Translations under genes and position numbers: made by a program
NCBI GenBank assembly: GCA_964514965.1
Contig: CAZETV010000001.1
Coordinates: forward strand, 753,063-785,062
Length of the DNA: 32,000 nucleotides
From: Candidatus Hadarchaeota archaeon
GTDB taxonomy: Archaea > Hadarchaeota > Hadarchaeia > Hadarchaeales > Hadarchaeaceae
Reading direction: 5' to 3'
The notes under the pieces: model-generated
What the model was told of the DNA's origin: nothing
The model's database searches: none
Seen by the model: only the letters and a program-made list of their open reading frames with translations
Shown here: in pieces, positions 6,839-31,548 of the stretch
How positions within the stretch are numbered: the first letter of the stretch is position 1
Layout of the letters: each line of letters begins with the position of its first letter

Positions 6839-7771
<933 letters not shown>

Positions 7772-7775
7772 CAGG

Positions 7776-8246
7776 ATGGGAGACGTTGAGACAGAGCTGA
7801 GGGTCAGCAAAATAAAAACGGGAACCGTGATAGACCACATCACCTCCGGCAAGGCACTAGCTGTACTCAGAATTCTGAACATTAGCGGGCAGAACAGTGC
7901 AATTATTTCAGTCTTGATGAATGTCCCAAGCAAAATGCACGGCAAGAAAGACGTGATTAAAGTCGAAAACCGAAAACTGACGGAAGAAGAAGTGAACAAG
8001 ATAGCGTTGGCGGCACCAGATGCAACTATCAACATCATTAAAAATTTCGAGGTAACCGAAAAGAAGAGTGTCGAACTCCCGGAATTCATCGAAGGGATAG
8101 TCAAGTGTTCCAATCCCGGTTGCATCACGAACACTTCCGAACCAGCCATCCCTCGGTTCAGGATTGTCAGCAAGACCCCAGTCAACCTCAGATGTGTTTA
8201 CTGCGAGCGGATAACCGGGGAAAAAGAGTTGTTGGCCCAATTTTGA
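7776..8246 (+). CDS. pyrI: Aspartate carbamoyltransferase regulatory chain
   Basis: The in-frame ATG at 7776 gives MGDVETELRVSKIKTGTVIDHI... and the C-terminal Zn domain CSNPGCITN...CVYCE. The track ORF start at 7443 is an upstream extension that overlaps pyrB. Confidence 0.9.
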   Translation: MGDVETELRVSKIKTGTVIDHITSGKALAVLRILNISGQNSAIISVLMNVPSKMHGKKDVIKVENRKLTEEEVNKIALAAPDATINIIKNFEVTEKKSVELPEFIEGIVKCSNPGCITNTSEPAIPRFRIVSKTPVNLRCVYCERITGEKELLAQF

Positions 8247-8967: not shown

Positions 8968-9600
8968 TTGGATTCAACCTTTTCAAAAAGCAAAATTGAA
9001 AAATGGCAAAAGGCAGCAGTTCTTCTCCATAAGTTAAATGCAATCCAATTTGGCGAGTTCGTTCTGGCCTCCGGAAAGACTAGCCCTTATTATGTTGACC
9101 TCAGACTCACACCTTCATACCCCGAGGTATTCAACAAACTCGCCAACCTTTGTGTGGATATGGTAAAGCAGGAAATAAACAGGGTAATCTATAAGTTTGC
9201 CGGGGTGCCATATGCAGGTCTTTCTCTGGCCACGCTTGTGAGCTTCAAACTCAAATCTCCATTAATCTTTGTGAGAAAAGAGAAGAAACCCCATGGCCGC
9301 ATGAAGATGGTTGAAGGGTTGCTCGAGCCGGGAGACCACGTCATTTTGATTGATGACCTAGCAACCACTGGAGGAAGCATCTTGGACGCGGCCAACGCAA
9401 TTAGGGCGGAGGGCGGGACGGTCGAACACGCTTTTGTAATCCTCGATCGAGAAGAGGGAGCCAAGAAGATGTTGGAAACCAACAATATTCATCTACATGC
9501 CTGTATGGGGATCAAGGCGGTTGTAAAATATTTACATGACACGGATTTTCTTGATAACAGACAATACTCTTTGGTCATGAAATATTTAGAGCAAAATTAA
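8968..9600 (+). CDS. pyrE: Orotate phosphoribosyltransferase
   Basis: FGEFVLASGKTSPYYVDLR and the PRPP motif VILIDDLATTGGS. The likely start is TTG at 8968, 7 nt after GGAGGGA. The track start at 8860 overlaps pyrF by about 100 nt. Confidence 0.85.
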   Translation: MDSTFSKSKIEKWQKAAVLLHKLNAIQFGEFVLASGKTSPYYVDLRLTPSYPEVFNKLANLCVDMVKQEINRVIYKFAGVPYAGLSLATLVSFKLKSPLIFVRKEKKPHGRMKMVEGLLEPGDHVILIDDLATTGGSILDAANAIRAEGGTVEHAFVILDREEGAKKMLETNNIHLHACMGIKAVVKYLHDTDFLDNRQYSLVMKYLEQN

Positions 9601-10406
9601 TGCGTTCTCAAATATTCAACCATAGATTCCAGTATCAACTTGCCATCACCATACTTCGGAATTTCTTTCATCATCGTCCAGTTAGGGAGCTGAACTCCGT
9701 AATATGCCCGCTCGGGGTGAGGCATCAAACCAAAAATTGTCCCGCTAGGATCGCAAATACCAGCAATGTCGTGAAAAGCTCCATTCGGATTTATCGGGTA
9801 CTTCCCGTCAGCATATGCTCCCTTCTCATCACAATATCTAAACACAAGCTGGTCGTTCTCGTACAGTTCTTCTAGATAATTTTTCTCATTTTTCTTCGAG
9901 AAAACAAACCTGCCCTCACTATGTGCCACAGGCACGAAAAGTTTTTGTCCTTTTTGAAATTTTTTAGTAAATATGCATTTGCCACGATTTTCATGTTTTA
10001 AGTAAACCCATCTGCACTCATATTTCGCTGAGCAATTGATTGCTAAGGCCGCATCAGGATAATCGTTAATTCCCTTGAACCCTGGCAACAACCCAGTCTC
10101 GACCAATACTTGAAATCCATTGCATATCCCTAATATCGGCCTTCCCTCTTCGACAAACTTCCTTAACTCATTGGCGAGCTCGGTAGCAATCCACTTGCCC
10201 AAAATTGCCCCTGCCCGCACATAGTCGCCATATGAAAAACCGCCAGGAATGATGAGAGCGTCGTAATCTAAGATATTTTTGTCCTTTGCAAGATTGTTTG
10301 TATGAATTATCTCTGATTTTACGCCTAAATCGTCGAGCGCCGCCTTTGTCTCAACATCACAATTTGTTCCTCCAACACGCATAACACAAATTTTAATTTC
10401 TTTCAT
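9597..10406 (-). CDS. purQ: Phosphoribosylformylglycinamidine synthase, glutaminase subunit
   Basis: The triad is intact: GICNGFQ (Cys) and MPHPER (His/Glu). Confidence 0.9.
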   Translation of the reverse strand: MKEIKICVMRVGGTNCDVETKAALDDLGVKSEIIHTNNLAKDKNILDYDALIIPGGFSYGDYVRAGAILGKWIATELANELRKFVEEGRPILGICNGFQVLVETGLLPGFKGINDYPDAALAINCSAKYECRWVYLKHENRGKCIFTKKFQKGQKLFVPVAHSEGRFVFSKKNEKNYLEELYENDQLVFRYCDEKGAYADGKYPINPNGAFHDIAGICDPSGTIFGLMPHPERAYYGVQLPNWTMMKEIPKYGDGKLILESMVEYLRTH

Positions 10407-17429: not shown

Positions 17430-18842
17430 TTAAGCTTTCCGAAACGGGTCTGCTATAGATTTGCCAGCCCATACATACAGGCAAAGACGCTCTTTGGGAA
17501 GCCCGATAGCCTTTATCATGTCATCCAATTTTTGATATCTTAATGAAGTAACATTCAACTCTTTGGCAATATAATTTACCATTTTCTTATACTTCTTTGA
17601 ATTTGGATCAATATATTCATCAACATTTTCAATATCTCTTCCTTCAATGACTTTTATAGCGCGGCGAGCGGCCAATTCTTCCATCCTCCTTGTTGAATAA
17701 TCGAACACGCTCGGGAACAATAGGGGTGGGCAAGCTATGCGTAAGTGAACTTTTTTTGCTCCATTATCCCACAATTTTTGTACAATATTTCTTAACTGGG
17801 TGCCTCTTACTATCGAATCATCACAGAGAATAATTCTTTTTCCTTCAATCAACTCTTTAATCGGGATTAATTTCATCCTCGCAACCAACTCTCTTGTCTC
17901 TTGAGAGGGCGGTGTATAACTCCTGTCGTACCCGGGGGTATACTTAACCAGCGGTCTCCTAAAAGGAATTTTTGACTCCAATGAATAGCCGATAGCATGA
18001 GTAGTACCTGAATCCGGAATACCAGCGACCATATCTGCCTTGACGTTATCATTCTTCGCCAGATATCTTCCACACCTCTCTCTGACAATTTCTACATTTA
18101 TTCCCTCATAGGAAGAAGCTGGAAATCCTGAATAAATCCATAAAAAGCTGTTTATTTGGCCTATGGTTGTACCTTTCTGCTTTTGACCAATCCCTGAAGG
18201 GGTGAGTAAGACTATTTCTCCAGGCAAAAGATATTTCTTAATTTTAAAACCTAGATTAAAAAAAGATGAACTCTCGGAAGTTACTGCCCAAGAGCCTCTC
18301 TTTTGCCCAACAATAAGAGGACTATAACCAAACTTATCCCTAACAGCATAGATGCCCTCTTTATTGAGCAGAAGAAGCGAACAAAAACCCCTAATCTTGC
18401 CAAACATGTGATTAATTCCTTCCACAATGGTCTTTCCCTCTGCAATGAGCTTAGCAACAAGTTCAGTAGAATTCACGCCTGCGCCGGTTATCTCACTGAA
18501 CGAGATGCCTTTTTCACGTAATTCGCTGGCCAGCTCTTCGGCATTTTGTATTAAACCGGTTGAACATATGCAGAACTGACCAAATTTTGAATCCAAACAA
18601 ACGGGTTGTATTTCTCTAGAGGTGATTACGCCGATCCCGCTATTTCCATGCATAGTCTTGTAATCATCATAAAATTTTGACTTGAACTGACTCTACCCCA
18701 ACGTGTGGATACTTCTTACAATCCTCTCCCCCAAAACTGCTAGGCCGCCATATTCCGTGCCCAAGTGGGAGAGATAGTCTGTGCCGTGAAATAGATTTTC
18801 CGAACAATCCTGCCGAGAGATTACCCCAAAAATTCCACTCAT
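17430..18842 (-). pseudogene. purF: Amidophosphoribosyltransferase (PurF)-like gene interrupted by an in-frame TAG, with a degenerate glutaminase domain
   Basis: My translation from ATG 18842 is MSGIFGVISRQDCSENLFHGTDYLSHLGTEYGGLAVLGERIVRSIHTLG. A TAG follows at 18693-18695, then SQFKSKFYDDYKT. The reading frame continues into the 407-aa track ORF (17430..18653, MHGNSGIG...). The N-terminus aligns to PurF MCGIxG...LQHRGQxxAGI. The C-terminal half has an intact PRPP motif, ILCDDSIVRGTQ. Confidence 0.7.
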
Positions 18843-21193: not shown

Positions 21194-22810
21194 GTGGTTT
21201 GTTTGACGGAAAGAGTCTCTAAAGATTCTTCCTACCTGAATGCTTCTTCTTCAACTAATACGAGAACTCGCGTGAGAGATGTAAGCCCGACGAGCGGGAT
21301 GTGTCCAATCTGTATCAAGGAGTGCCCCTTTCTCTGTGAAATTAGCCTTTCCGCTTTTCGCGGACGTGAAGTTCTTTATCCAGTACCCAAGCAATTTGGG
21401 CTCAGCACTGCGGCATCTTTAAAGAACTACGGCCTAGATTGGTCCCATATAAACATTCTTTCGGGGCTTAGGGGAGCCAGCGGTATTGAAGAAGATTCTG
21501 ATATGGCAACTTTTCCCAACGTGAATATCAAGTCCGACCTAGGTGGGATTCCTCTCAAACTTCCACTTGTAAACGGCGCATTTGGCTCCACAAATGTCGC
21601 GGGTGAAAATTGGGATGGTCTCGCGATTGGGGCAGCTCTAGCTGGTGTAATCCTGGTTGTTGGAGAGAATGTCTGTGGAATGGATCCAAACGCTAAGTTC
21701 GCCAATGAAAAATTAACTCATTCAAAAGATATGGAGTATAGGGTTAAGAAGTTTAGAGAGTTTTGGGATGGGAAACATGGTGATATTGCCGTCCAAACCA
21801 ACGTGGAAGACCAAAGGCTTGGCGTAGACGTTTATGCTATTTCCAAGCTTGGAGTCAATGTGATTGAGCGAAAGTGGGGCCAAGGAGCGAAAGTAATAGG
21901 TGGAGAGGTAAGGCTTCCTAATCTAGAACGGGCACTCACACTGAAAAAACGGGGCTACATAGTCCTCCCGAACCCGGATGACCCAACCGTTCAAGAGGCC
22001 TTTAAAGCAGGGGTATTCAAGAGCTTTGAACGACACAGCCGGGTGGGGATGCCGGCTGAAAGAGAATTTGTTGAAGATGTAGAATGGTTGAGGGAACAGG
22101 GCGCAAAAAAAGTAACTTTAAAAACGGGGGCTTACCGCCCCTCCGATGTGGCGTGGACAATGAAAGTAGCTTCCGAAGCCAAAGTTGATTATGTCACTTT
22201 CGACGGCGCTGGTGGTGGCACAGCTATGAGTCCAGTGCCAATGATGAACGAGATGAGTACTCCAACAGTTTATCTTGAAGCGCAGATACTCAAGTGTGTC
22301 CAAATTTTGAAGCAGAAGGGTCGATATGTTCCAGATATCAGCATGGCAGGTGGTTTCATCAACGAGACTCAGATTTTCAAGAGTATCGCGATGAGTAACT
22401 TTGGAGACGGGCCGATAATCAAGGCGATAACTATAGCTAGGGCACCTCTTACCGCAGTTATGAAGGCTACTTACTTCATGGAATTGGCTGAACAGAAAAA
22501 GTTGCCTCGCGATTTCGCTGAGCAATACGGTACAGATCCCGCGAAATTCTTCATCACAGCACCAGAGTTGAATAAGAAATATGGTAGTAAGTCCAAGAAT
22601 ATCCCGTTACCAGCTATAGGACTCTACACATATCTCATTGACCGAATTGGAGTTGGACTCCAACAGTTGATGGCGGGAGCACGAAAGTGGAAAATAGAGT
22701 TGTTAGACAGAAGCGACCTAATATCACTAACAGAAAGAGCATCAAAAGTTACTGGAATTCCGATGCCTGACGATTTCGAGGCCGATGTGATCGAACAAAT
22801 CTTGGAGTGA
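21194..22810 (+). CDS. Glutamate-synthase FMN-domain-like protein with an N-terminal Cys cluster (Fe-S?), function unknown
   Basis: KWGQGAKVIGGEV and FDGAGGGTAMSP resemble the GltS FMN-domain motifs QGAKPGxGG and DGxxGGTGAxP. The N-terminus has CPICIKECPFLCE (CX2CX3CX3C). The start is uncertain: GTG 21194, TTG 21203 or ATG 21299. Confidence 0.7.
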   Translation: MVCLTERVSKDSSYLNASSSTNTRTRVRDVSPTSGMCPICIKECPFLCEISLSAFRGREVLYPVPKQFGLSTAASLKNYGLDWSHINILSGLRGASGIEEDSDMATFPNVNIKSDLGGIPLKLPLVNGAFGSTNVAGENWDGLAIGAALAGVILVVGENVCGMDPNAKFANEKLTHSKDMEYRVKKFREFWDGKHGDIAVQTNVEDQRLGVDVYAISKLGVNVIERKWGQGAKVIGGEVRLPNLERALTLKKRGYIVLPNPDDPTVQEAFKAGVFKSFERHSRVGMPAEREFVEDVEWLREQGAKKVTLKTGAYRPSDVAWTMKVASEAKVDYVTFDGAGGGTAMSPVPMMNEMSTPTVYLEAQILKCVQILKQKGRYVPDISMAGGFINETQIFKSIAMSNFGDGPIIKAITIARAPLTAVMKATYFMELAEQKKLPRDFAEQYGTDPAKFFITAPELNKKYGSKSKNIPLPAIGLYTYLIDRIGVGLQQLMAGARKWKIELLDRSDLISLTERASKVTGIPMPDDFEADVIEQILE

Positions 22811-22836
22811 CTGCTAAAAAGAGTGAAGGTAACCGG

Positions 22837-23775
22837 ATGTTCGAACCTCAGAAATTTCTTGAGGAAAAAGTTGAGTGGCTTAAGATTAACATAGGGAATA
22901 AAAAGGCGGTTGTGGCAATTTCGGGCGGTGTGGATAGCTCCGTAACGACGATGCTGGGACACCACGCGGTCGGTGATAGGTTAACAGCTGTCTTCCTTGA
23001 CGATGGATTGATGAGGAAGGGAGAGCCAGAGCAAGTGGTTGATTGTTTCAAGCAATTGGGAGTAAATATCAAACTTTACGACGTGAGCGGCGAGTTCTTT
23101 AAAGCACTTAAAGGCCTAACGGACCCGGAAGAAAAAAGGAAGGCGTTTAGAGAAACGTTCTATAGAGTTTTCGGCGGAATTGCGCGTGAGTTGGGAGTAG
23201 AGTACTTACTACAGGGCACTATAGCTGCAGATGTAGCGGAAACCAAAGCTGGCATTAAGACCCAACACAATGTTTTAGAGCAGATCGGGATTCATCCGCT
23301 CGAAAAGTATGGTTTTAAAGTTTTGGAACCTCTGAAGGACATCTACAAGCCAGAGGTTCGCGAAGTTGCTAAAATGCTGGGGCTGCCAGCTGAAATCCAA
23401 GAACGAAGGCCTTTCCCAGGCCCTGGCCTCTCGATTAGGATCCTAGGTGAAGTAACTCCCGAAAAAGCAGATTTGGTGAGGAAAGCCACGGAGATTGTAG
23501 AAGAAGAGACCAAAGACACTCCGTGTTTCCAAGCATTTGCGATAGCAATGGGCGACAAAGCGACCGGAGTTACTACGGATAGAGAGAGAAAGTACGGAGA
23601 AATAATAGTGATTCGAGTAGTGCAATCAAAGGATGCCGTGACCGCAAAATCTGTTGAGCTACCATGGCAGGTGTTGAAGCGAATCGAGGGGAGAATAAGA
23701 GAAAAAATCCCGACAGTCACCCGCGTTCTTTACGATTTAACTGACAAGCCTCCGGCGACAATAGAGTACGAATAA
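22837..23775 (+). CDS. guaA: GMP synthase subunit B (ATP pyrophosphatase)
   Basis: MFEPQKFLEE..KAVVAISGGVDSSV P-loop, DPEEKRK, FPGPGL and C-terminal PPATIEYE. ATG at 22837 with GAAGGT 6 nt upstream. The track start GTG 22807 overlaps the upstream stop. Confidence 0.9.
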   Translation: MFEPQKFLEEKVEWLKINIGNKKAVVAISGGVDSSVTTMLGHHAVGDRLTAVFLDDGLMRKGEPEQVVDCFKQLGVNIKLYDVSGEFFKALKGLTDPEEKRKAFRETFYRVFGGIARELGVEYLLQGTIAADVAETKAGIKTQHNVLEQIGIHPLEKYGFKVLEPLKDIYKPEVREVAKMLGLPAEIQERRPFPGPGLSIRILGEVTPEKADLVRKATEIVEEETKDTPCFQAFAIAMGDKATGVTTDRERKYGEIIVIRVVQSKDAVTAKSVELPWQVLKRIEGRIREKIPTVTRVLYDLTDKPPATIEYE

Positions 23776-25516: not shown

Positions 25517-28500
25517 TCAAACCGTTTGAATCTTCTTTACCTCAGTATGATATTCATTGAGCGACCTAATCTCAATTTTTTCATTCAATATTTTCTCTAT
25601 TGCCTGAACAGCCACACTCGCGCTCGTTAGAGTTGTAATATACGGAATCCCGATATCTACCGCTGCCCGCCGAATCTGGTATCCATCGCGCACCGGATCT
25701 CGTCCGACGGTGGGAGTGTTGATAATTAAATCGACATCGCCAGCGCGGATGTAATCGATGATGTTTGGACGCCCCTGGGAAACTTTCAATACTAGTTTTG
25801 ACTCGACGCCAGCTTTCTGGAGCATATCACCCGTGCCATCAGTGGCCAAAATCTCGAATCCAATTTTCTTAAGCTTTCTCGCAATCGGGACGAACTCCTG
25901 TTGGTCCCCCTTTCGTACACTCATGAATATCCTCCCCGAAGTTGGGAGCTTGTTACCGGCCGCCAGCTGGGCTTTGAAAAATGCCCTGCCCGGGTCACGG
26001 TCTATGCCCATTACTTCACCGGTCGACTTCATCTCAGGACCCAGAACCGGATCGACTCCGGGAAGTTTAATGAAAGGAAAGACTGATTCCTTCACACAAA
26101 CATACGGTATTTCTACATCTTTCGGAATTCCAATCTCGTCGAGTGAATGTCCAAGCATAACCTTGGTGGCGACTTTAGCTAATGGAATTCCGATAGCCTT
26201 CGATATGAAAGGTACTGTACGACTCGCCCGCGGATTTACCTCAAGCACGTAAACTACATCATTCTTGACCGCATACTGGATGTTCATCAGGCCAATAACT
26301 TTTAATTCTCTTGCAAGCCTAATAGTGCACTCCCTGATTGTCTTGATGGCTTTCTCGCTCAGAATTTGAGAAGGCATAACCATGGCAGCATCTCCCGAAT
26401 GAACACCAGCTTCTTCGATGTGTTCTAAAATCCCCCCGATGAAAGTTCGTTTTCCATCCGAAACCGCATCGACATCGACTTCAATTGCCTGAGAGAGGAA
26501 CTTGTCGATGAGGATTGGGTGTTCCTCTGATACCTTCGCGGCTTCTTCCATGTAGCGTGCGAGTTCGATTTCATCATGCACCCGCACCATGGCACGTCCA
26601 CCAAGAACATAACTTGGCCTCACTAAGACGGGATATCCAATCTTTTTCGCTATCTTTTTTGCCTCCTCAGCCGAGAAAGCTGTACTTCCTTCGGGCTGAT
26701 GAATTTCCAATTTCCTAAGAAGTTTGTTAAAGCGCTTTCTATCTTCAGCAATATCAATACTTTCAGCTGAGGTTCCGAGAACATTAACGCCAGCCTTATC
26801 CAGTGAAACTGCAAGATTTATTGGAGTTTGACCACCAAACTGTAAAATCACTCCATATGGTTTTTCTTTCTCTATGACGTGCATTACATCTTCAAATGTA
26901 AGCGGCTCGAAGTAAAGCTTGTCAGATGTGTCTGAATCGGTGGAGACGGTTTCCGGGTTATTGTTAATGATTATAGCTTCGATTCCCTCCTCCCGCAAAG
27001 CCAGTACTGAGTGGACACAACAATAATCAAATTCTATCCCTTGGCCGATTCGGATAGGCCCTCCACCTATAATAATTATCTTCTTCCGCTTGCTAGTCGG
27101 AACCTCATCAACAGGTTCATAGCTCGAGTAATAATAGGGGGCCTTGGCGGCAAATTCAGCGGCACAAGTATCCACTGTCTTAAAAGTAGTTTTGACGCCC
27201 ATTTGCTTGCGAAGTTGCTTAATATTCCTCTCTTTGGTTTTGAACAAGTAGGCGAGTTGTCGGTCCGAAAAACCAAATCTCTTTGCTTCCCCCAAAGCTT
27301 TATTTTTTTCAGATTTTTTCAGAGATATGCGCTTGAGTTTTTCTTCCATGTCGATAATTCGCTTAAACTTCCAAATGAACCAAGGATCAATCTTCGTTAG
27401 TTGATAGATTTCATCTACACCGATCCCAATCTTGAGCGCATCTCTAACCAAGAAAACTCTTTGGTCATTTGGGTGGGTTAGCTGCCACTTTAGAGGCTCG
27501 ATATCAATGATAGGTTTGTCCTTTCCGTCACCACCGAGGCCAAACCTCCCGATTTCGAGTGAACGTATCGCCTTTTGGAACGCTTCTTCGAATGTCCGTC
27601 CGATCGCCATCACTTCTCCCGTGGACTTCATTTGTGTACCTATCGTTTGGTCAGCTTCTGGGAATTTATCAAACGGCCAACGCGGGACTTTGATTACCAC
27701 GTAGTCAAGAGTTGGCTCAAATGAAGCGGGGGTATCCTTAGTAACAGGGTTGGAAATTTCATCTAGAGTCATCCCAAGCGCTAGTTTCGTCGCTATCCTG
27801 GCAATCGGGTAACCCGTGGCTTTAGATGCAAGCGCGGAGGAACGGCTGACTCTTGGATTGACTTCGATTATATAGTACTCAAATTTGTCTGGATTAACAG
27901 CAAACTGAATATTGCAGCCACCGTTTAGTTTAAGAGCCCGGATTACTTTCAGGGAAACGGACCTTAGGGTTTGGTGCTCCCGGTCGGAAAGCGTTTGAGC
28001 CGGAGCGACGACCATACTCTCGCCAGTGTGAATTCCCATAGGGTCGATGTTTTCCATGTTACAGATGGTAATACAGTTGTCTACACTATCACGCATCACC
28101 TCGTACTCGATTTCCTTCCAACCGAGCACACATTTGTCGAGAGAAACGGTTCGATTTAAACTCACGTTTAGCCCAAATTTCACGATTCGTGTGAGTTCCT
28201 CTTCATCATGCGCAACGCCTGAACCCGTGCCACCCAGACAGTAGTTAGGTCTGCATAAGATTGGGTATCCATCAAGCTCTTTGACGGCCCCCAATGCCTC
28301 CTCAAGTGAGTGAACTTCAATGGATTTAGGCATTCGTTCGCCTATCTCGTGAATAAGTTCGAAAAAGAGCTTCCGATCCTCGGCAGCCTTAATGGAGTTT
28401 ACTGGTGTTCCTATCACCTCGACTCCCACCTCATCGAGCACCCCTAACTTTTGGAGTTCTACCGTGAGATTAAGGCCAGTTTGACCACCCATCGAAGGAA

Positions 28501-28759
28501 TCACAGCGTCTGGTTTCTCCTTGCGTATTATTTCAGCTACTATTTCAGGCACCAAAGGCTCGATGTATACGATGTCCGCGATATCCGTGTCTGTTTGGAA
28601 AGTGGCTGGATTAGAATTAACGAGGACAACTTCTATTCCTTCCTCGCGCAGTGCTTTACAGGCTTGCGAACCTGAATAGTCAAATTCGGCCGCTTGACCT
28701 ATCACTATGGGTCCACTGCCGATTACCATCACTTTCTTGATGTCCTTACGTTTGGGCAA
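25517..28759 (-). CDS. carB: Carbamoyl-phosphate synthase large subunit
   Basis: 1080 aa with duplicated ATP-grasp halves. The N-terminus is MPKRKDIKKVMVIGSGPIVIGQAAEFDYSG. TTG start preceded by TAGGAGG. Confidence 0.95.
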   Translation of the reverse strand: MPKRKDIKKVMVIGSGPIVIGQAAEFDYSGSQACKALREEGIEVVLVNSNPATFQTDTDIADIVYIEPLVPEIVAEIIRKEKPDAVIPSMGGQTGLNLTVELQKLGVLDEVGVEVIGTPVNSIKAAEDRKLFFELIHEIGERMPKSIEVHSLEEALGAVKELDGYPILCRPNYCLGGTGSGVAHDEEELTRIVKFGLNVSLNRTVSLDKCVLGWKEIEYEVMRDSVDNCITICNMENIDPMGIHTGESMVVAPAQTLSDREHQTLRSVSLKVIRALKLNGGCNIQFAVNPDKFEYYIIEVNPRVSRSSALASKATGYPIARIATKLALGMTLDEISNPVTKDTPASFEPTLDYVVIKVPRWPFDKFPEADQTIGTQMKSTGEVMAIGRTFEEAFQKAIRSLEIGRFGLGGDGKDKPIIDIEPLKWQLTHPNDQRVFLVRDALKIGIGVDEIYQLTKIDPWFIWKFKRIIDMEEKLKRISLKKSEKNKALGEAKRFGFSDRQLAYLFKTKERNIKQLRKQMGVKTTFKTVDTCAAEFAAKAPYYYSSYEPVDEVPTSKRKKIIIIGGGPIRIGQGIEFDYCCVHSVLALREEGIEAIIINNNPETVSTDSDTSDKLYFEPLTFEDVMHVIEKEKPYGVILQFGGQTPINLAVSLDKAGVNVLGTSAESIDIAEDRKRFNKLLRKLEIHQPEGSTAFSAEEAKKIAKKIGYPVLVRPSYVLGGRAMVRVHDEIELARYMEEAAKVSEEHPILIDKFLSQAIEVDVDAVSDGKRTFIGGILEHIEEAGVHSGDAAMVMPSQILSEKAIKTIRECTIRLARELKVIGLMNIQYAVKNDVVYVLEVNPRASRTVPFISKAIGIPLAKVATKVMLGHSLDEIGIPKDVEIPYVCVKESVFPFIKLPGVDPVLGPEMKSTGEVMGIDRDPGRAFFKAQLAAGNKLPTSGRIFMSVRKGDQQEFVPIARKLKKIGFEILATDGTGDMLQKAGVESKLVLKVSQGRPNIIDYIRAGDVDLIINTPTVGRDPVRDGYQIRRAAVDIGIPYITTLTSASVAVQAIEKILNEKIEIRSLNEYHTEVKKIQTV

Positions 28760-28770
28760 CTTGAAGCCTC

Positions 28771-29853
28771 CTAACTATTCTCCTTTAGCATCCCCACAAA
28801 ATTATCGAAGAGATACTGGTTGTCCCATTCGGGGTAGTATTGAATCGAGATAATTGGAAGCTCAACATGGCTCATGCCTTCGACGGTTTTATCGTTACAA
28901 TTCACTTTAGTAATTTGAAAGCCAGTCCCCTCAAGAGAATCGGCATCCACGGCGAAACCGTGATTTTGAGAGGTTATATGCACCTTGCCGGTTCTCAAAT
29001 CCTTAACCGGCTGGTTCCCTCCCCTGTGCCCAAACTTCAACTTGAAAATCTTGGCGCCTGAGGCCAGAGCTAAGATTTGGTGACCAAGACTGATGCCCAT
29101 AATTGGATATTGAGAAAGCAACTTTCGAACTGTCCCTCGAACGTGACTTAATATGGCTGGGTCTCCTGGTCCGTTTGAGATGACGACTCCATCGGGCTCA
29201 AGAAATTTAATTTCCTCAGAAGTCGTGCTTGCGGGAACGCATGTTACCGAAACCCCGCGCTTGAGCAAGCTTCGAATGATACTGCGCTTGACGCCGCAGT
29301 CAATCAAGACCACTTTGAGTTTGTCACCACCGTCAAATTCTCCAACTTGCTTACAAGTGGTTTCGCTAACGAGATCTAGCTCAGAAAAGCCGAGCTGCTT
29401 CTTAACCTTTTCAAGCAACTCCGCAGCTGGGGGGTCCACACCGGTGTAGGTTACAATCATTCCCTTCTTCACTCCATACTCTCGAATCTTGATGGTGAGC
29501 GAGCGAGTATCCACGCCCATCATACCTGGTATGTTAAACTCTTTCAAAAATGCGTCAAGAGTTTTGGCACCTTTCCAGTGAGACGGGTTCTCGCAAACTT
29601 CTCTGACGATGAATCCTTCTGCCCAAATTCTATCGGATTCACACCAATCCGGATGTACCTTGTAATTTCCTACCAAGGGATATGTTAACATCAAAATTTG
29701 GCCTTTATAAGAGGGGTCTGTTAACGATTCAACGTAACCGCTCATCGAAGTGTTAAAAACTACTTCACCCGATGCTTCTTTTTCGGCACCAAATCCCGCA
29801 CCGTAAATTATTGTACCGTCTTCCAGAGCGAGCACTGCTTTTGTTCTTTTCAA
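28771..29853 (-). CDS. carA: Carbamoyl-phosphate synthase small subunit with a substituted catalytic triad (Cys->Ser, His->Tyr)
   Basis: Aligns to CarA along its full length (VVFNTSMSGY, SNGPGDP, FGHRGGNQPV, QNHGFAV). However, it reads GISLGHQ (AGT codon at 29089-29091) and QYYPEW (TAC at 28834-28836) where GICLGHQ and GHPE are expected. Confidence 0.9.
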   Translation of the reverse strand: MKRTKAVLALEDGTIIYGAGFGAEKEASGEVVFNTSMSGYVESLTDPSYKGQILMLTYPLVGNYKVHPDWCESDRIWAEGFIVREVCENPSHWKGAKTLDAFLKEFNIPGMMGVDTRSLTIKIREYGVKKGMIVTYTGVDPPAAELLEKVKKQLGFSELDLVSETTCKQVGEFDGGDKLKVVLIDCGVKRSIIRSLLKRGVSVTCVPASTTSEEIKFLEPDGVVISNGPGDPAILSHVRGTVRKLLSQYPIMGISLGHQILALASGAKIFKLKFGHRGGNQPVKDLRTGKVHITSQNHGFAVDADSLEGTGFQITKVNCNDKTVEGMSHVELPIISIQYYPEWDNQYLFDNFVGMLKENS

Positions 29854-29919: not shown

Positions 29920-31272
29920 TTATCCGGTTAGACTTTGGATTGGGGAAGGTATTCTCCCGCCCCTCGATACAAATTTTGATGAACTAAATTTGCCCACCTT
30001 CATCACCGGCGCTCTCCCTAACAGCCCCCCTAATTCTACCCATTCTCCCTCTTTTCCCATCGGGATTATCCTTACACCGGTTGCCTTATCGTTCGCGACG
30101 CCTATCGCGCATTCGTCCGCGATGACCGCGGCGATAGTTTCCGATGGTGTCTTGCTTGGCACCACTATCATGTCCAAACCAACTGAACAGACCGAAGTCA
30201 TCGCCTCTAACTTATCTAAACTCATGGCGCCCTCAGCCACCGCTTCAGCCATGTCCTTGTCTTCGCTGACGGGGATGAATGCCCCAGATAAGCCACCCAC
30301 ATATGAGGTCGCCATCACTCCCCCCTTCTTCACGGCATCCGTAAGAATGGCAAGCGCTGCAGTACTGCCATGAGTTCCACATTTTTCCACCCCCATGGCT
30401 TCAATTATTCCCGCGACCGAATCGCCTTCAAAAGGAGTTGGGGCCAACGATAAGTCAATAATCCCGAATTTAACGTTCAACCTTCTCGCCATTTCCCGCC
30501 CGACTAGCTCTCCAACCCTCGTTATCTTAAATGCAGTTTGCTTGATTTTCTCGGCCAGCTCTCCGAAATCAGCATCACTAAGCTTTTCTACTACAGCTCT
30601 AATGACGCCGGGGCCTGAAATTCCAACGTTGACGCTGTTCTCTGCCTCTCCAACACCGTGAAAGGCCCCTGCCATGAACGGATTATCAGGAGGGGCATTC
30701 GCGAAGGTAACAAGTTTGGCACAGCTCAATGGATTAATTGATGCGCATTCCTTCACCGCCTTTCCCATCCTAAGCACGGCGTCCATGTTGATTCCACTTT
30801 TAGTAGTTGCGACGTTTACAGAGGAACATAATCGCTTGGTTTTGTTCAGCACCTTCGGGATGGAATCAATCAAGAGCTCGTCTCCCTTGGTGAACCCTTT
30901 GTGCACTAGAGCGGAGTACCCTCCAATATAGTCCACTTTCAATTTTTCGGCAGCCACGTCCACACATTTCGCCAATTTCACGCAAGTACTCTCTTTTTTG
31001 GTGTTCAATGCGTCCAACAAGGAAGCTAGGGGAGTAACAGCAATCCTTTTATTGACAATCGGCAGCCCATATTTCATCTCCACTTCCTTTGCTTCTTTGA
31101 CGAGGTCACAGCCTACCGAGGTGATTTTTTTGTAGACCTTTTTGCACATTCGGTCGATATTCGGATCAATACATCCACCAAGATTTATCCCCAAGGTAAC
31201 TGTTCGAATGTCCAGCCGTTCAAAATTAATCATCTTTATCGTTTCGGCTATCTCTTCCTTGGAAAACTGCAT
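29920..31272 (-). CDS. UPF0210 / DUF711 family protein, function unknown
   Basis: 450 aa. I recognise the N-terminus ([20 protein letters not shown]) as UPF0210. This family is typically paired with a small ACT protein. Confidence 0.75.
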
Positions 31273-31275
31273 GAC

Positions 31276-31548
31276 CTACACCCTGTGCATGTATTTGAAA
31301 AGCCCTTCGTGCTGCATTATAATCTTAACTTTCTGTTTAGCAGCAACCCTATCTAGCACCTTTTGAACCTCGCTTCTCTTGACCTCACTTACGTCCACGA
31401 GCATAATCATGGTGAAGAACTCTTGCAAAATAGTTTGACTTATGTCCTCGATATTGACCTTTAACTTAGCCAACTCCGTTGTGACAGCAGCTACTATACC
31501 AGGGTGGTCAACCCCCGTAACTGTAATCACGGCTCGCTCCTTCGTCAC
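31276..31548 (-). CDS. ACT-domain protein (UPF0237-like)
   Basis: 90 aa with AVITVTGVDHPGIVAAVTTELAKLKVNIEDISQT. GTG start after GGGGA. Its TAG stop is 3 nt before the UPF0210 ATG. Confidence 0.8.
   Translation of the reverse strand: MTKERAVITVTGVDHPGIVAAVTTELAKLKVNIEDISQTILQEFFTMIMLVDVSEVKRSEVQKVLDRVAAKQKVKIIMQHEGLFKYMHRV

What the first reader, a model, noticed from the sequence alone, without database searches (positions are those of the whole stretch)
28771..29853. CarA has lost its glutaminase nucleophile (Cys->Ser) and catalytic His (->Tyr), suggesting a CPS I-like, ammonia-dependent CPS in a prokaryote
The ORF aligns with CarA over its whole length, and the glutamine-pocket motifs are kept (SNGPGDP, GHQ, QNHGFAV). 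The triad Cys position (E. coli Cys269 in GICLGHQ, number from memory) is Ser, encoded by AGT at 29089-29091 (residue 255). The triad His (E. coli His353 in GHPE) is Tyr, encoded by TAC at 28834-28836 (residue 340). The Glu is retained. Each change is one nucleotide away from the canonical codon (TGT, CAC). Two independent hits on catalytic residues in an otherwise well-conserved protein argue against a sequencing error. Vertebrate ammonia-specific CPS I also has Ser at this Cys. I do not know of a described prokaryotic equivalent. carB, translationally coupled via TAGGAGG-N6-TTG, looks intact.
Basis: partly seen in the sequence, partly recalled or inferred. Interest (0 to 1): 0.75.

Follow-up and report, generated by a model that had tools for sequence, protein, structure and literature searches.

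The report
Dead-glutaminase CarA subunit in Hadesarchaea
In a lineage of subsurface archaea (Hadesarchaea), the small subunit of carbamoyl-phosphate synthetase has lost the residues that split glutamine but is otherwise kept under strong selection, so the enzyme most likely uses free ammonia, as the animal urea-cycle enzyme CPS I does.

Summary
ORF 28771-29853(-) is a full-length CarA with Ser255 (AGT) at the E. coli Cys269 position and Tyr340 (TAC) at His353. The Glu is kept.

It is not an error. The window matches an independent assembly base for base. All 26 distinct sequences of the same Hadesarchaea lineage, from many metagenomes, carry Ser or Gly plus Tyr plus the deletion. Among positions conserved in 106 canonical homologs, only these sites are hit. 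The glutamine pocket, the remaining tunnel residues and CarB are intact, and dN/dS is 0.12-0.13.

Best reading: a pseudo-glutaminase subunit on an ammonia-using CarAB. This is functionally like CPS I but is not a member of that family.

I could not establish whether this genome also holds a canonical carA. One found in the same sequencing run belongs to a different Hadesarchaeon.

Related lineages show parallel degeneration. 23 of the 150 closest diverse CarA cluster representatives also lack the Cys, the His or both, including one bacterial pyr-operon copy. The neighbouring purF-like gene has also lost its nucleophile. I found no published description.

The parts
28771..29853 (-). carA-like gene (360 aa): small subunit of carbamoyl-phosphate synthetase with an inactivated glutaminase site (pseudo-glutaminase)
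   Evidence: TIGR01368 442.5 bits, PF00988 and PF00117. AF2 model has pLDDT 94.6 and TM 0.96 to E. coli CarA. dN/dS against the lineage-A ortholog is 0.13.
29089..29091 (-). Codon AGT = Ser255, at the position of the nucleophile Cys269 of E. coli CarA
   Evidence: In lineage A this position is Ser in 20 and Gly in 6 of 26 distinct sequences.
28834..28836 (-). Codon TAC = Tyr340, at the position of the general base His353
   Evidence: It is Tyr in all lineage-A sequences.
28825..28830 (-). Glu342 (GAA, the retained triad Glu355) followed directly by Trp343. This is the junction of the 5-residue deletion that removes the equivalents of E. coli Ala356-Ser357-Pro358-Gly359-Pro360.
   Evidence: Alignments. 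Gly359 is the residue mutated in the tunnel-blocking G359F enzyme, PDB 1M6V.
28760..28773 (-). carA stop TAG overlapping a GGAGG Shine-Dalgarno, 7 nt before the TTG start of carB (translational coupling)
   Evidence: Read directly from the sequence.
25517..28759 (-). carB, large (synthetase) subunit, 1080 aa, intact
   Evidence: NF003671 1623 bits. It aligns 1-1075 to E. coli CarB. The ammonia-tunnel gate Cys232/Ala251/Ala314, plus Glu215/217/219 and Arg265, are conserved (the gate is named in PMC8674909). dN/dS is 0.09.
6851..8246 (+). pyrB and pyrI (aspartate carbamoyltransferase), the consumer of the carbamoyl phosphate, in the same gene island
   Evidence: TIGR00670 409 bits. PyrI was called on the identical Logan contig.

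Best explanation
The gene encodes a catalytically dead (pseudo-)glutaminase small subunit that still pairs with an intact CarB. The thiol nucleophile is Ser, or Gly in close relatives. The general base is Tyr. The loop that follows the triad Glu and forms part of the ammonia-tunnel wall is deleted. Glutamine therefore cannot be hydrolysed.

The holoenzyme most likely makes carbamoyl phosphate from free NH3, bicarbonate and 2 ATP, and feeds the pyrimidine genes encoded nearby. The small subunit is kept because CarB needs it as a structural or allosteric partner. It may also serve as the entry port of the preserved ammonia tunnel.

Shown: the loss of the catalytic residues, the deletion, conservation across the clade, purifying selection, the intact pocket, tunnel and CarB, and the coupling to carB.

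Inferred: absence of glutaminase activity, use of free ammonia, and the role of the retained subunit.
For: The identity and positions of the lesions are. Lineage-A sequences from many independent metagenomes and MAGs, including Hadesarchaea DG-33 (KUO39748.1), all carry Ser or Gly plus Tyr plus the deletion. The Gly variant rules out any nucleophile at this position.

Of the positions conserved in at least 93% of 106 canonical homologs, only Cys269, His353 and Pro358-Gly359-Pro360 are changed throughout lineage A. The glutamine-pocket residues (S47, G241, G243, L270, Q273, N311, G313, F314) and the tunnel residues (S35, M36, G/S293, S309) are kept.

dN/dS is 0.13 for the whole gene and 0.12 for the GATase-like half, the same range as the neighbouring genes at 0.075-0.19. 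The fold is predicted with high confidence and superposes on E. coli CarA.

carB is intact, its tunnel gate is conserved, and it is translationally coupled.

Precedents: human CPS1 cannot use glutamine because Ser294 replaces the Cys. E. coli CPS variants with a blocked or perforated glutamine tunnel remain normally active with external ammonia (PMC4655335). Isolated bacterial CarB works as an ammonium-dependent CPS (PMC8121099).

The same elements are hit again in other Hadesarchaea carB-linked copies (P0013, P0020) and in 23 of the 150 closest diverse representatives.
Against: There is no biochemistry. The glutamine pocket is fully conserved, which pure loss of function does not predict. Either something still binds there or the pocket doubles as the tunnel mouth.

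E. coli CPS has a poor affinity for ammonia (established knowledge, recalled, not checked here), so efficient use would need high ammonium or further adaptation that I did not identify in CarB.

I could not read the rest of the genome. A second, canonical carA that could swap onto CarB is not excluded. PurQ in the same window has a canonical Cys/His/Glu, so the cell does use glutamine as a nitrogen donor elsewhere.
Confidence: 0.72

Rival explanations
1. Two-small-subunit switch. The genome also encodes a canonical, glutaminase-active CarA elsewhere, for example in a nitrogen-regulated operon. CarB would pair with the dead copy when ammonium is plentiful and with the live copy under nitrogen limitation.
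For: A canonical stand-alone carA (P0008) lies in the same SRA run, in an operon of an NrpR-like regulator, carA, canonical purF and pyrG, next to glnA and GOGAT genes (L082). P0008 is robustly closer (1000 of 1000 resamplings) to the degenerate carB-linked P0013 than to canonical carB-linked copies. That pattern suggests a duplication followed by degeneration of the carB-linked copy in that lineage. B. thetaiotaomicron uses CarAB at low ammonium and the orphan CarB2 at high ammonium (PMC8121099). Contig L126 shows a dead and a live carA-carB pair side by side in one bacterium.
Against: L082 is not the window's organism. Its PyrG is 78% and 71% identical to two other Hadesarchaea, whereas the window's PyrB, PyrD, PurH and DUF711 are only 43-56% identical to those same organisms. 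GC content and tetranucleotide usage also differ. Among the 120 best CarA hits (at least about 54% identity), none besides the query lies on the 1,030,738-bp contig. The well-sampled lineage A has no matching family of canonical paralogs: the other canonical relatives whose context could be read are carB-linked orthologs of other lineages. A more distant paralog cannot be excluded.
Confidence: 0.17
2. The subunit is still a glutaminase. Ser255 would act as the nucleophile with another base, so the CPS would remain glutamine-dependent.
For: Ser can be a nucleophile in other hydrolases, and the glutamine pocket is intact.
Against: The general base is lost as well (Tyr340). Close relatives have Gly instead of Ser with everything else unchanged. 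The loop holding tunnel residue Gly359 is deleted. In human CPS1 the Cys-to-Ser replacement is given as the reason glutamine cannot be used (PMC4655335).
Confidence: 0.04
3. Sequencing or assembly artefact, or a decaying pseudogene.
For: Each catalytic change is one nucleotide away from the canonical codon. The nearby purF-like gene carries an in-frame TAG.
Against: The sequence is identical in two assemblies. The same state is seen in 26 distinct sequences from many samples. There are no frameshifts or stops. dN/dS is 0.12-0.13. All other conserved residues are retained.
Confidence: 0.02
4. The dead pocket has been re-purposed as a ligand sensor. Glutamine, or a related metabolite, would bind without being hydrolysed and allosterically tune CarB according to nitrogen status. 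This is a variant of the best explanation with an added regulatory role.
For: All glutamine-binding residues are conserved under purifying selection although catalysis is gone. From memory, not checked here: the E. coli C269S enzyme still binds glutamine, and binding stimulates the large subunit's ATPase.
Against: There is no direct evidence. The same residues may be conserved simply because they shape the fold, the interface or the tunnel mouth. Several of the more diverged dead CarAs elsewhere have lost pocket residues.
Confidence: 0.2

Closest known systems
Vertebrate carbamoyl-phosphate synthetase I (CPS1, ammonia-dependent, mitochondrial)
   Same: It has a glutaminase-like domain retained but inactive, with Ser in place of the nucleophilic Cys, and takes free ammonia as substrate (PMC4655335). 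The window's CarA model superposes on the CPS1 N-terminal moiety with TM 0.90.
   Different: CPS1 is one fused polypeptide of about 1500 residues that needs N-acetylglutamate. According to the paper only the Cys is replaced, and the old tunnel is blocked by Gln318 at the Gly293 position. Here the subunits are separate genes, the His is also lost, the loop carrying tunnel residue Gly359 is deleted, position 293 stays small (Gly in the window, Ser in its relatives), and nothing is known about activators.
Engineered E. coli CarA mutants (C269S, PDB 1C30/1C3O; G359F, PDB 1M6V; tunnel-blocked and perforated variants)
   Same: The same sites are affected. The C269S mutant chain is the best sequence hit in the PDB. 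Tunnel-blocked or perforated variants lose glutamine use but keep normal activity with external ammonia (PMC4655335; titles).
   Different: Those are single laboratory mutations. Here three lesions are naturally combined, fixed in a clade and maintained by selection.
Canonical prokaryotic CarAB (CPS II type, glutamine-hydrolysing)
   Same: Same two-gene, translationally coupled architecture, domain composition, fold, interface, tunnel and CarB.
   Different: The defining Cys-His-Glu triad is not present. A survey table of 600 genomes lists no CarAB without a glutaminase component (PMC3376133).
Bacteroides thetaiotaomicron orphan CarB2 (proposed ammonium-dependent CPS)
   Same: A prokaryotic ATP-grasp CPS proposed to use ammonium directly, alongside glutamine-dependent enzymes located in a low-ammonium-induced locus (PMC8121099). 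This parallels the NrpR-carA-purF-pyrG operon seen in a related Hadesarchaeon.
   Different: CarB2 has no small subunit at all. Here a dead small subunit is retained and conserved.
Archaeal PurF' paralogs (PurF-like proteins lacking the N-terminal Cys)
   Same: An amidotransferase homolog without its nucleophile, kept inside nucleotide-biosynthesis clusters (PMC3261824). The window holds such a gene 10 kb from carA.
   Different: It belongs to a different family (class II Ntn glutaminase). Its function is also unknown.
Carbamate-kinase-like CPS of Pyrococcus and the mini-CPS of Methanobrevibacter smithii
   Same: These are the only prokaryotic ammonia-dependent carbamoyl-phosphate-forming enzymes cited in the literature I read (PMC6022934; PMC8121099).
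   Different: They have an amino-acid-kinase fold or a 41-kDa half-size synthetase and no CarA-like subunit. The window has a full CarB plus a CarA-like subunit.

Membership tests
CarA, CPS small subunit (TIGR01368 / PF00988 + PF00117) | N-terminal CPSase small-chain domain plus C-terminal class-I GATase fold, full length | tested here: met
   PF00988 173 bits covering 1-126 of 126 profile positions. PF00117 146 bits. TIGR01368 442.5 bits against a cut-off of 307. AF2 model TM 0.96, rmsd 1.2 A to E. coli CarA.
CarA, CPS small subunit (glutamine-hydrolysing) | Catalytic triad Cys269-His353-Glu355 | tested here: not met
   Ser255, Tyr340, Glu342. The triad is invariant in 106 of 106 canonical homologs and in 80 of 80 reference genomes.
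CarA, CPS small subunit | Intact loop after the triad Glu (Pro358-Gly359-Pro360) lining the ammonia tunnel | tested here: not met
   Five residues are deleted. The loop is conserved at 97-100% in canonical homologs.
CarA, CPS small subunit | Encoded next to and co-expressed with carB | tested here: met
   An 11-nt spacer with a Shine-Dalgarno overlapping the stop codon. The arrangement is the same in lineage-A loci L083-L085.
CarA, CPS small subunit | Glutamine hydrolysis coupled to carbamoyl-phosphate synthesis | not testable with these tools
   Needs enzyme assays.
CPS I (ammonia-dependent, N-acetylglutamate-activated) | Nucleophile Cys replaced (Ser) in a retained glutaminase-like domain | tested here: met
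   Ser255. CPS1 has Ser294 (PMC4655335).
CPS I | Single polypeptide fusing the small-subunit-like and large-subunit-like moieties | tested here: not met
   Two ORFs separated by a stop codon and 11 nt.
CPS I | Obligatory activation by N-acetylglutamate | not testable with these tools
   The C-terminal MGS-like allosteric domain is present (PF02142), but ligand specificity cannot be read from the sequence here.
CPS I | Old glutamine tunnel blocked by a bulky residue at the E. coli Gly293 position (Gln318 in human) | tested here: not met
   Gly in the window and Ser in its relatives at this position, as in canonical CarA.
Carbamate-kinase-like CPS (Pyrococcus type) | Amino-acid-kinase fold enzyme, no ATP-grasp CarB | tested here: not met
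   The synthetase here is a full ATP-grasp CarB (NF003671 1623 bits).

The most novel reading that the evidence does not exclude
Hadesarchaea, and apparently many other prokaryotes, run an 'ammonia mode' of nucleotide biosynthesis. Glutaminase-dead but selectively maintained partners (CarA here, PurF' next door) would turn amidotransferases into free-ammonia enzymes. The conserved dead pocket would serve either as the mouth of the ammonia tunnel or as a non-hydrolysing glutamine sensor. In some lineages, live copies in a nitrogen-regulated operon would take over when ammonium is scarce. The repeated loss of the same three elements (nucleophile, base, tunnel loop) would then be an adaptive, recurrent switch and not decay.
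Probability: 0.3. Interest if true: 0.8.

Novelty: new variant of a known kind. Interest (0 to 1): 0.64.

Why it matters
The papers I read state that every CPS type except animal CPS I draws its nitrogen from glutamine. They also state that prokaryotic ammonia-dependent carbamoyl-phosphate synthesis is limited to carbamate-kinase-like enzymes and a mini-CPS. A conserved CarAB whose small subunit is a pseudo-enzyme would be a natural prokaryotic counterpart of CPS I.

It would give a clean system for three questions. Why is the dead glutaminase domain kept? How does external ammonia reach the carboxyphosphate site? Is the loss adaptive in ammonium-rich, energy-poor subsurface habitats?

There is also a practical point. 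Automatic annotation names these proteins 'glutamine-hydrolyzing', which would mislead metabolic reconstructions of nitrogen flow in Hadesarchaea and in the other lineages where such copies occur.

Tried and rejected
It returned only distant canonical CarAs and did not find the window's genome. Its one use was that all 80 loci are Cys-His-Glu.

2. A homolog search with a fused L13+S9 query was meant to test whether L082 and the window share a genome. It did not even recover the self proteins and was uninformative.

3. I looked for a PyrG on the 1,030,738-bp contig and found none. I first read this as support for the 245-kb contig (L082) belonging to the same genome. I rejected that reading after triangulation showed the window's lineage is so distant from L082's relatives that its PyrG would fall below the listing cut-off.

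4. Tetranucleotide and GC comparison of L082 with the window leans towards different organisms but is not decisive on its own.

5. I tried to obtain NCBI accessions for the two long contigs by looking up edge genes or using a minimal flank. Both attempts failed.

It did yield L126 by luck.

7. I looked for an NrpR-type operator (GGAA-N6-TTCC, recalled from memory) in the glnA-nrpR spacer of L082 by eye and saw none.

8. The idea that all glutamine amidotransferases of this organism are dead is rejected. PurQ is canonical.

9. Fan et al. 2009, on the ammonia tunnel, could not be read. The full list of tunnel residues therefore rests partly on memory.

Full report
**What is there.** The ORF at 28771-29853 on the minus strand (360 aa, TTG start) is a full-length carbamoyl-phosphate synthetase small subunit. 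It matches TIGR01368 at 442.5 bits against a cut-off of 307, and carries PF00988 plus PF00117. Eleven nucleotides downstream, after a stop codon that overlaps a GGAGG, begins an intact 1080-aa carB (NF003671, 1623 bits).

The HMMER alignment to E. coli CarA places Ser255 on Cys269, Tyr340 on His353 and Glu342 on Glu355. The top PDB hit is the engineered E. coli C269S mutant, 1c30.

The five residues after the Glu (E. coli Ala356-Ser357-Pro358-Gly359-Pro360) are absent: E. coli has HPE-ASPGP-HD and the window has YPE-----WD.

**Not an error and not decay.** The whole window is identical, with 0 mismatches over 32,000 bases, to a contig assembled independently by Logan from run SRR14802574.

The closest homologs are 84-86% identical and come from NCBI, JGI, ENA and Logan assemblies. 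Some are labelled Hadesarchaea, including MAG DG-33. All show the same state. Of 26 distinct sequences read, 20 have Ser, 6 have Gly, and all have Tyr and the deletion.

I compared these with 106 canonical homologs in which Cys, His and Glu are invariant. The only positions conserved at 93% or more that are changed throughout this lineage are Cys269, His353 and Pro358-Gly359-Pro360. The residues I recall as forming the glutamine pocket (S47, G241, G243, L270, Q273, N311, G313, F314) are retained. So are those I recall as lining the small-subunit part of the tunnel (S35, M36, position 293, position 309).

Against the ortholog in L083, dN/dS is 0.13 for carA and 0.12 for its GATase-like half. 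It is 0.09 for carB and 0.075-0.19 for seven neighbouring genes. An AlphaFold model built on a 50-sequence alignment is confident (pLDDT 94.6, pTM 0.92). It superposes on E. coli CarA at TM 0.96 and on the N-terminal moiety of human CPS1 at TM 0.90.

In CarB, the tunnel gate Cys232/Ala251/Ala314 (named in PMC8674909), the nearby glutamates and Arg265 are conserved.

**How it most likely works.**
- Without a thiol nucleophile, with Gly tolerated at that position, and without the general base, covalent glutamine hydrolysis cannot proceed.
- The deleted loop contains Gly359. [quoted passage not shown]
- De Cima et al. report that E. coli variants with a blocked or perforated glutamine tunnel are normally active with external ammonia. 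They also report that human CPS1 cannot use glutamine because Ser294 replaces the Cys (PMC4655335).
- Isolated bacterial CarB is an ammonium-dependent CPS (PMC8121099).

The best-supported mechanism is therefore a CarAB complex that takes free NH3. The small subunit would be kept as a structural or allosteric partner. Because the pocket and tunnel are conserved and the wall loop is gone, it may also be the port through which ammonia enters. That last step is inference. The product would feed pyrB/pyrI and the rest of the pyrimidine pathway, which lie in the same gene island.

**Is there a second, canonical carA?**

A canonical CarA, P0008, is 68% identical to the query and occurs in the same sequencing run. 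It is not next to carB. It sits in an operon of an NrpR-like regulator, carA, a canonical purF (Cys-containing) and pyrG, and that operon lies beside glnA and glutamate-synthase genes (L082). This resembles the low-ammonium locus of B. thetaiotaomicron.

However, L082 belongs to another organism. Its PyrG is 78% and 71% identical to those of two other Hadesarchaea. The window's PyrB, PyrD, PyrK, PurH and DUF711 are only 43-56% identical to the same organisms. Composition also differs.

P0008 is closest to a degenerate, carB-linked CarA of its own lineage, P0013, which keeps the Cys, has His->Phe and carries the same deletion. The two are 83-85% identical, and P0008 is closer to P0013 than to canonical carB-linked copies in 1000 of 1000 resamplings. 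This suggests that in that lineage a duplication was followed by degeneration of the carB-linked copy.

For the window's lineage I found no second CarA on the 1.03-Mb contig among the 120 best hits. I also found no family of canonical paralogs matching this well-sampled lineage. The two other canonical relatives whose context I could read, P0012 and P0017, are carB-linked orthologs from other lineages. A distant paralog cannot be excluded, because I could not read the rest of the genome.

**Wider pattern.** Other Hadesarchaea carB-linked copies are hit in the same places:
- P0010, P0011 and P0013: Cys kept, His->Ser/Pro/Phe, deletion.
- P0020, P0022 and P0024: further loss of the Glu.
- P0023: Cys->Gly only.

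Beyond Hadesarchaea, 23 of the 150 best representatives of 50%-identity clusters are full-length CarA-like proteins that lack the Cys, the His or both. Most have Cys->Gly, His replaced by various residues, and often a degenerate PGP loop. Their nearest neighbours are mostly canonical, which implies many independent losses. Cluster representatives over-count fast-evolving lineages. In line with that, none of the 80 nearest species-representative genomes has a degenerate copy.

There is one concrete bacterial case. On metagenome contig L126, a pyr-operon carA-like gene (GIGLGHE ... FEPEAAPGA, that is Cys->Gly and His->Glu) precedes a full carB, pyrK, pyrD, pyrF and pyrE. A canonical carA-carB pair follows immediately.

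**Comparison with what is known.** The enzyme works like CPS I but is not a member of that family. The subunits are separate. The His is also lost. The tunnel loop is deleted, whereas in CPS1 the tunnel is blocked at position 293. Nothing can be said about N-acetylglutamate.

It belongs to the CarA family by domains, fold and genomic context, but it fails that family's catalytic definition.

My literature searches found no description of a prokaryotic CarAB with a dead small subunit. De Cima et al. state that all CPS types except CPS1 use glutamine. Liu et al. state that prokaryotic ammonium-dependent CPSs are known only as the archaeal carbamate-kinase-like enzyme and the M. smithii mini-CPS. 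A table covering 600 genomes lists no carAB without a glutaminase component. The searchable library is incomplete, so an existing description cannot be ruled out.

**Side observation that bears on the interpretation.** Ten kilobases away, the purF-like gene (17430-18842, minus strand) starts MSGIFGV in place of the canonical MCG. Its downstream glutaminase motifs are degenerate, and it scores 187 bits against the TIGR01134 cut-off of 350. The lineage-A relative has the same Ser1 protein intact at 471 aa, with dN/dS 0.16. In the window the gene also carries an in-frame TAG at 18693-18695, and gene calls on both assemblies reflect it. Such PurF' paralogs are known in archaea but are of unknown function (PMC3261824). 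PurQ in the window is canonical. The organism therefore still uses glutamine for some amidotransfers, and the loss is enzyme-specific, not global.

**Verdict.** I rate it a new variant of a known kind, of moderate to high interest. The main open points are the enzyme's actual substrate preference, the role of the conserved dead pocket, and whether a canonical carA exists elsewhere in this genome.

Noticed in passing
window 17430-18842 (-), TAG at 18693-18695: The purF-like gene has Ser in place of the N-terminal nucleophile Cys (MSGIFGV). Its glutaminase motifs are degenerate (GVITS where GHxRYxT is expected, STG where HNG is expected). TIGR01134 scores only 187 bits against a cut-off of 350. 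In this genome an in-frame TAG splits it into a 49-aa and a 407-aa ORF, and both assemblies carry that gene call. The lineage-A relative (L083/L084) has the intact 471-aa Ser1 version. It resembles the archaeal PurF' paralogs of unknown function (PMC3261824).
   Followed up: partly
L082 7618-14351 (Logan SRR14802574_66899; the NCBI contig is 245,056 bp): In another Hadesarchaeon from the same run, glnA and GOGAT-like genes lie next to an operon of an NrpR-like regulator, a canonical stand-alone carA, a canonical purF (Cys-containing) and pyrG. This looks like a nitrogen-regulated operon of glutamine amidotransferases. The carA is 83-85% identical to a degenerate carB-linked copy (P0013) of the same lineage.
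   Followed up: partly
proteins P0464-P0613; L126 13-11291: 23 of the 150 closest 50%-identity cluster representatives of CarA lack the catalytic Cys, the His or both. Each is nearest to canonical sequences, which points to many independent losses. On L126, a bacterial pyr operon has a dead carA-like gene (Cys->Gly, His->Glu) coupled to a full carB, directly upstream of a canonical carA-carB pair.
   Followed up: partly
window 1-32000: The whole window is a nucleotide-biosynthesis island. It holds pyrD, pyrK, pyrC, pyrB, pyrI, pyrF, pyrE, purQ, purL, purS, purM, folD, purB, purE, purF', purD, purN, guaA subunit B, purH, carB and carA. No GMP-synthase glutaminase subunit (guaA subunit A) lies next to subunit B (22807-23775).
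   Followed up: no
window 9597-10406 (-): PurQ, the glutaminase of FGAM synthetase, has a canonical Cys (GICNGFQ) and His/Glu (HPER). Glutamine is therefore still used as a nitrogen donor by at least one amidotransferase of this organism.
   Followed up: yes
window 21194-22810 (+): A 538-aa ORF has a Cys-rich N-terminus (CPICIKECPFLC) and a weak glutamate-synthase FMN-domain match. Its stop overlaps the start of guaA subunit B. It is absent from the syntenic position in the lineage-A relative L083. Function unknown.
   Followed up: no
window 29920-31548 (-): An ACT-domain protein (90 aa) and a DUF711/PRK05313 protein (450 aa) overlap by 4 nt and end 66 nt upstream of carA. They may form one operon with carAB. 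The arrangement is conserved in lineage A (L083-L085), but in another Hadesarchaeon (L091) the pair lies elsewhere. Function unknown.
   Followed up: no
window carB/carA compared with L086, L088, L089, L090: CarB is 78-82% and CarA 64-68% identical between the window's lineage and the other Hadesarchaea, whereas PyrB, PyrD, PyrK, PurH and DUF711 are only 43-56% identical. Together with the identical 5-residue deletion in several lineages, this may simply reflect strong constraint on CarB. It may instead reflect lateral spread of a carAB cassette. Unresolved.
   Followed up: no
window 29836-29853 (-): The gene callers of the public assemblies start carA six codons further in (354 aa, P0001) than the TTG at 29853 used here. 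The residue numbers 255 and 340 refer to the 360-aa ORF.
   Followed up: no
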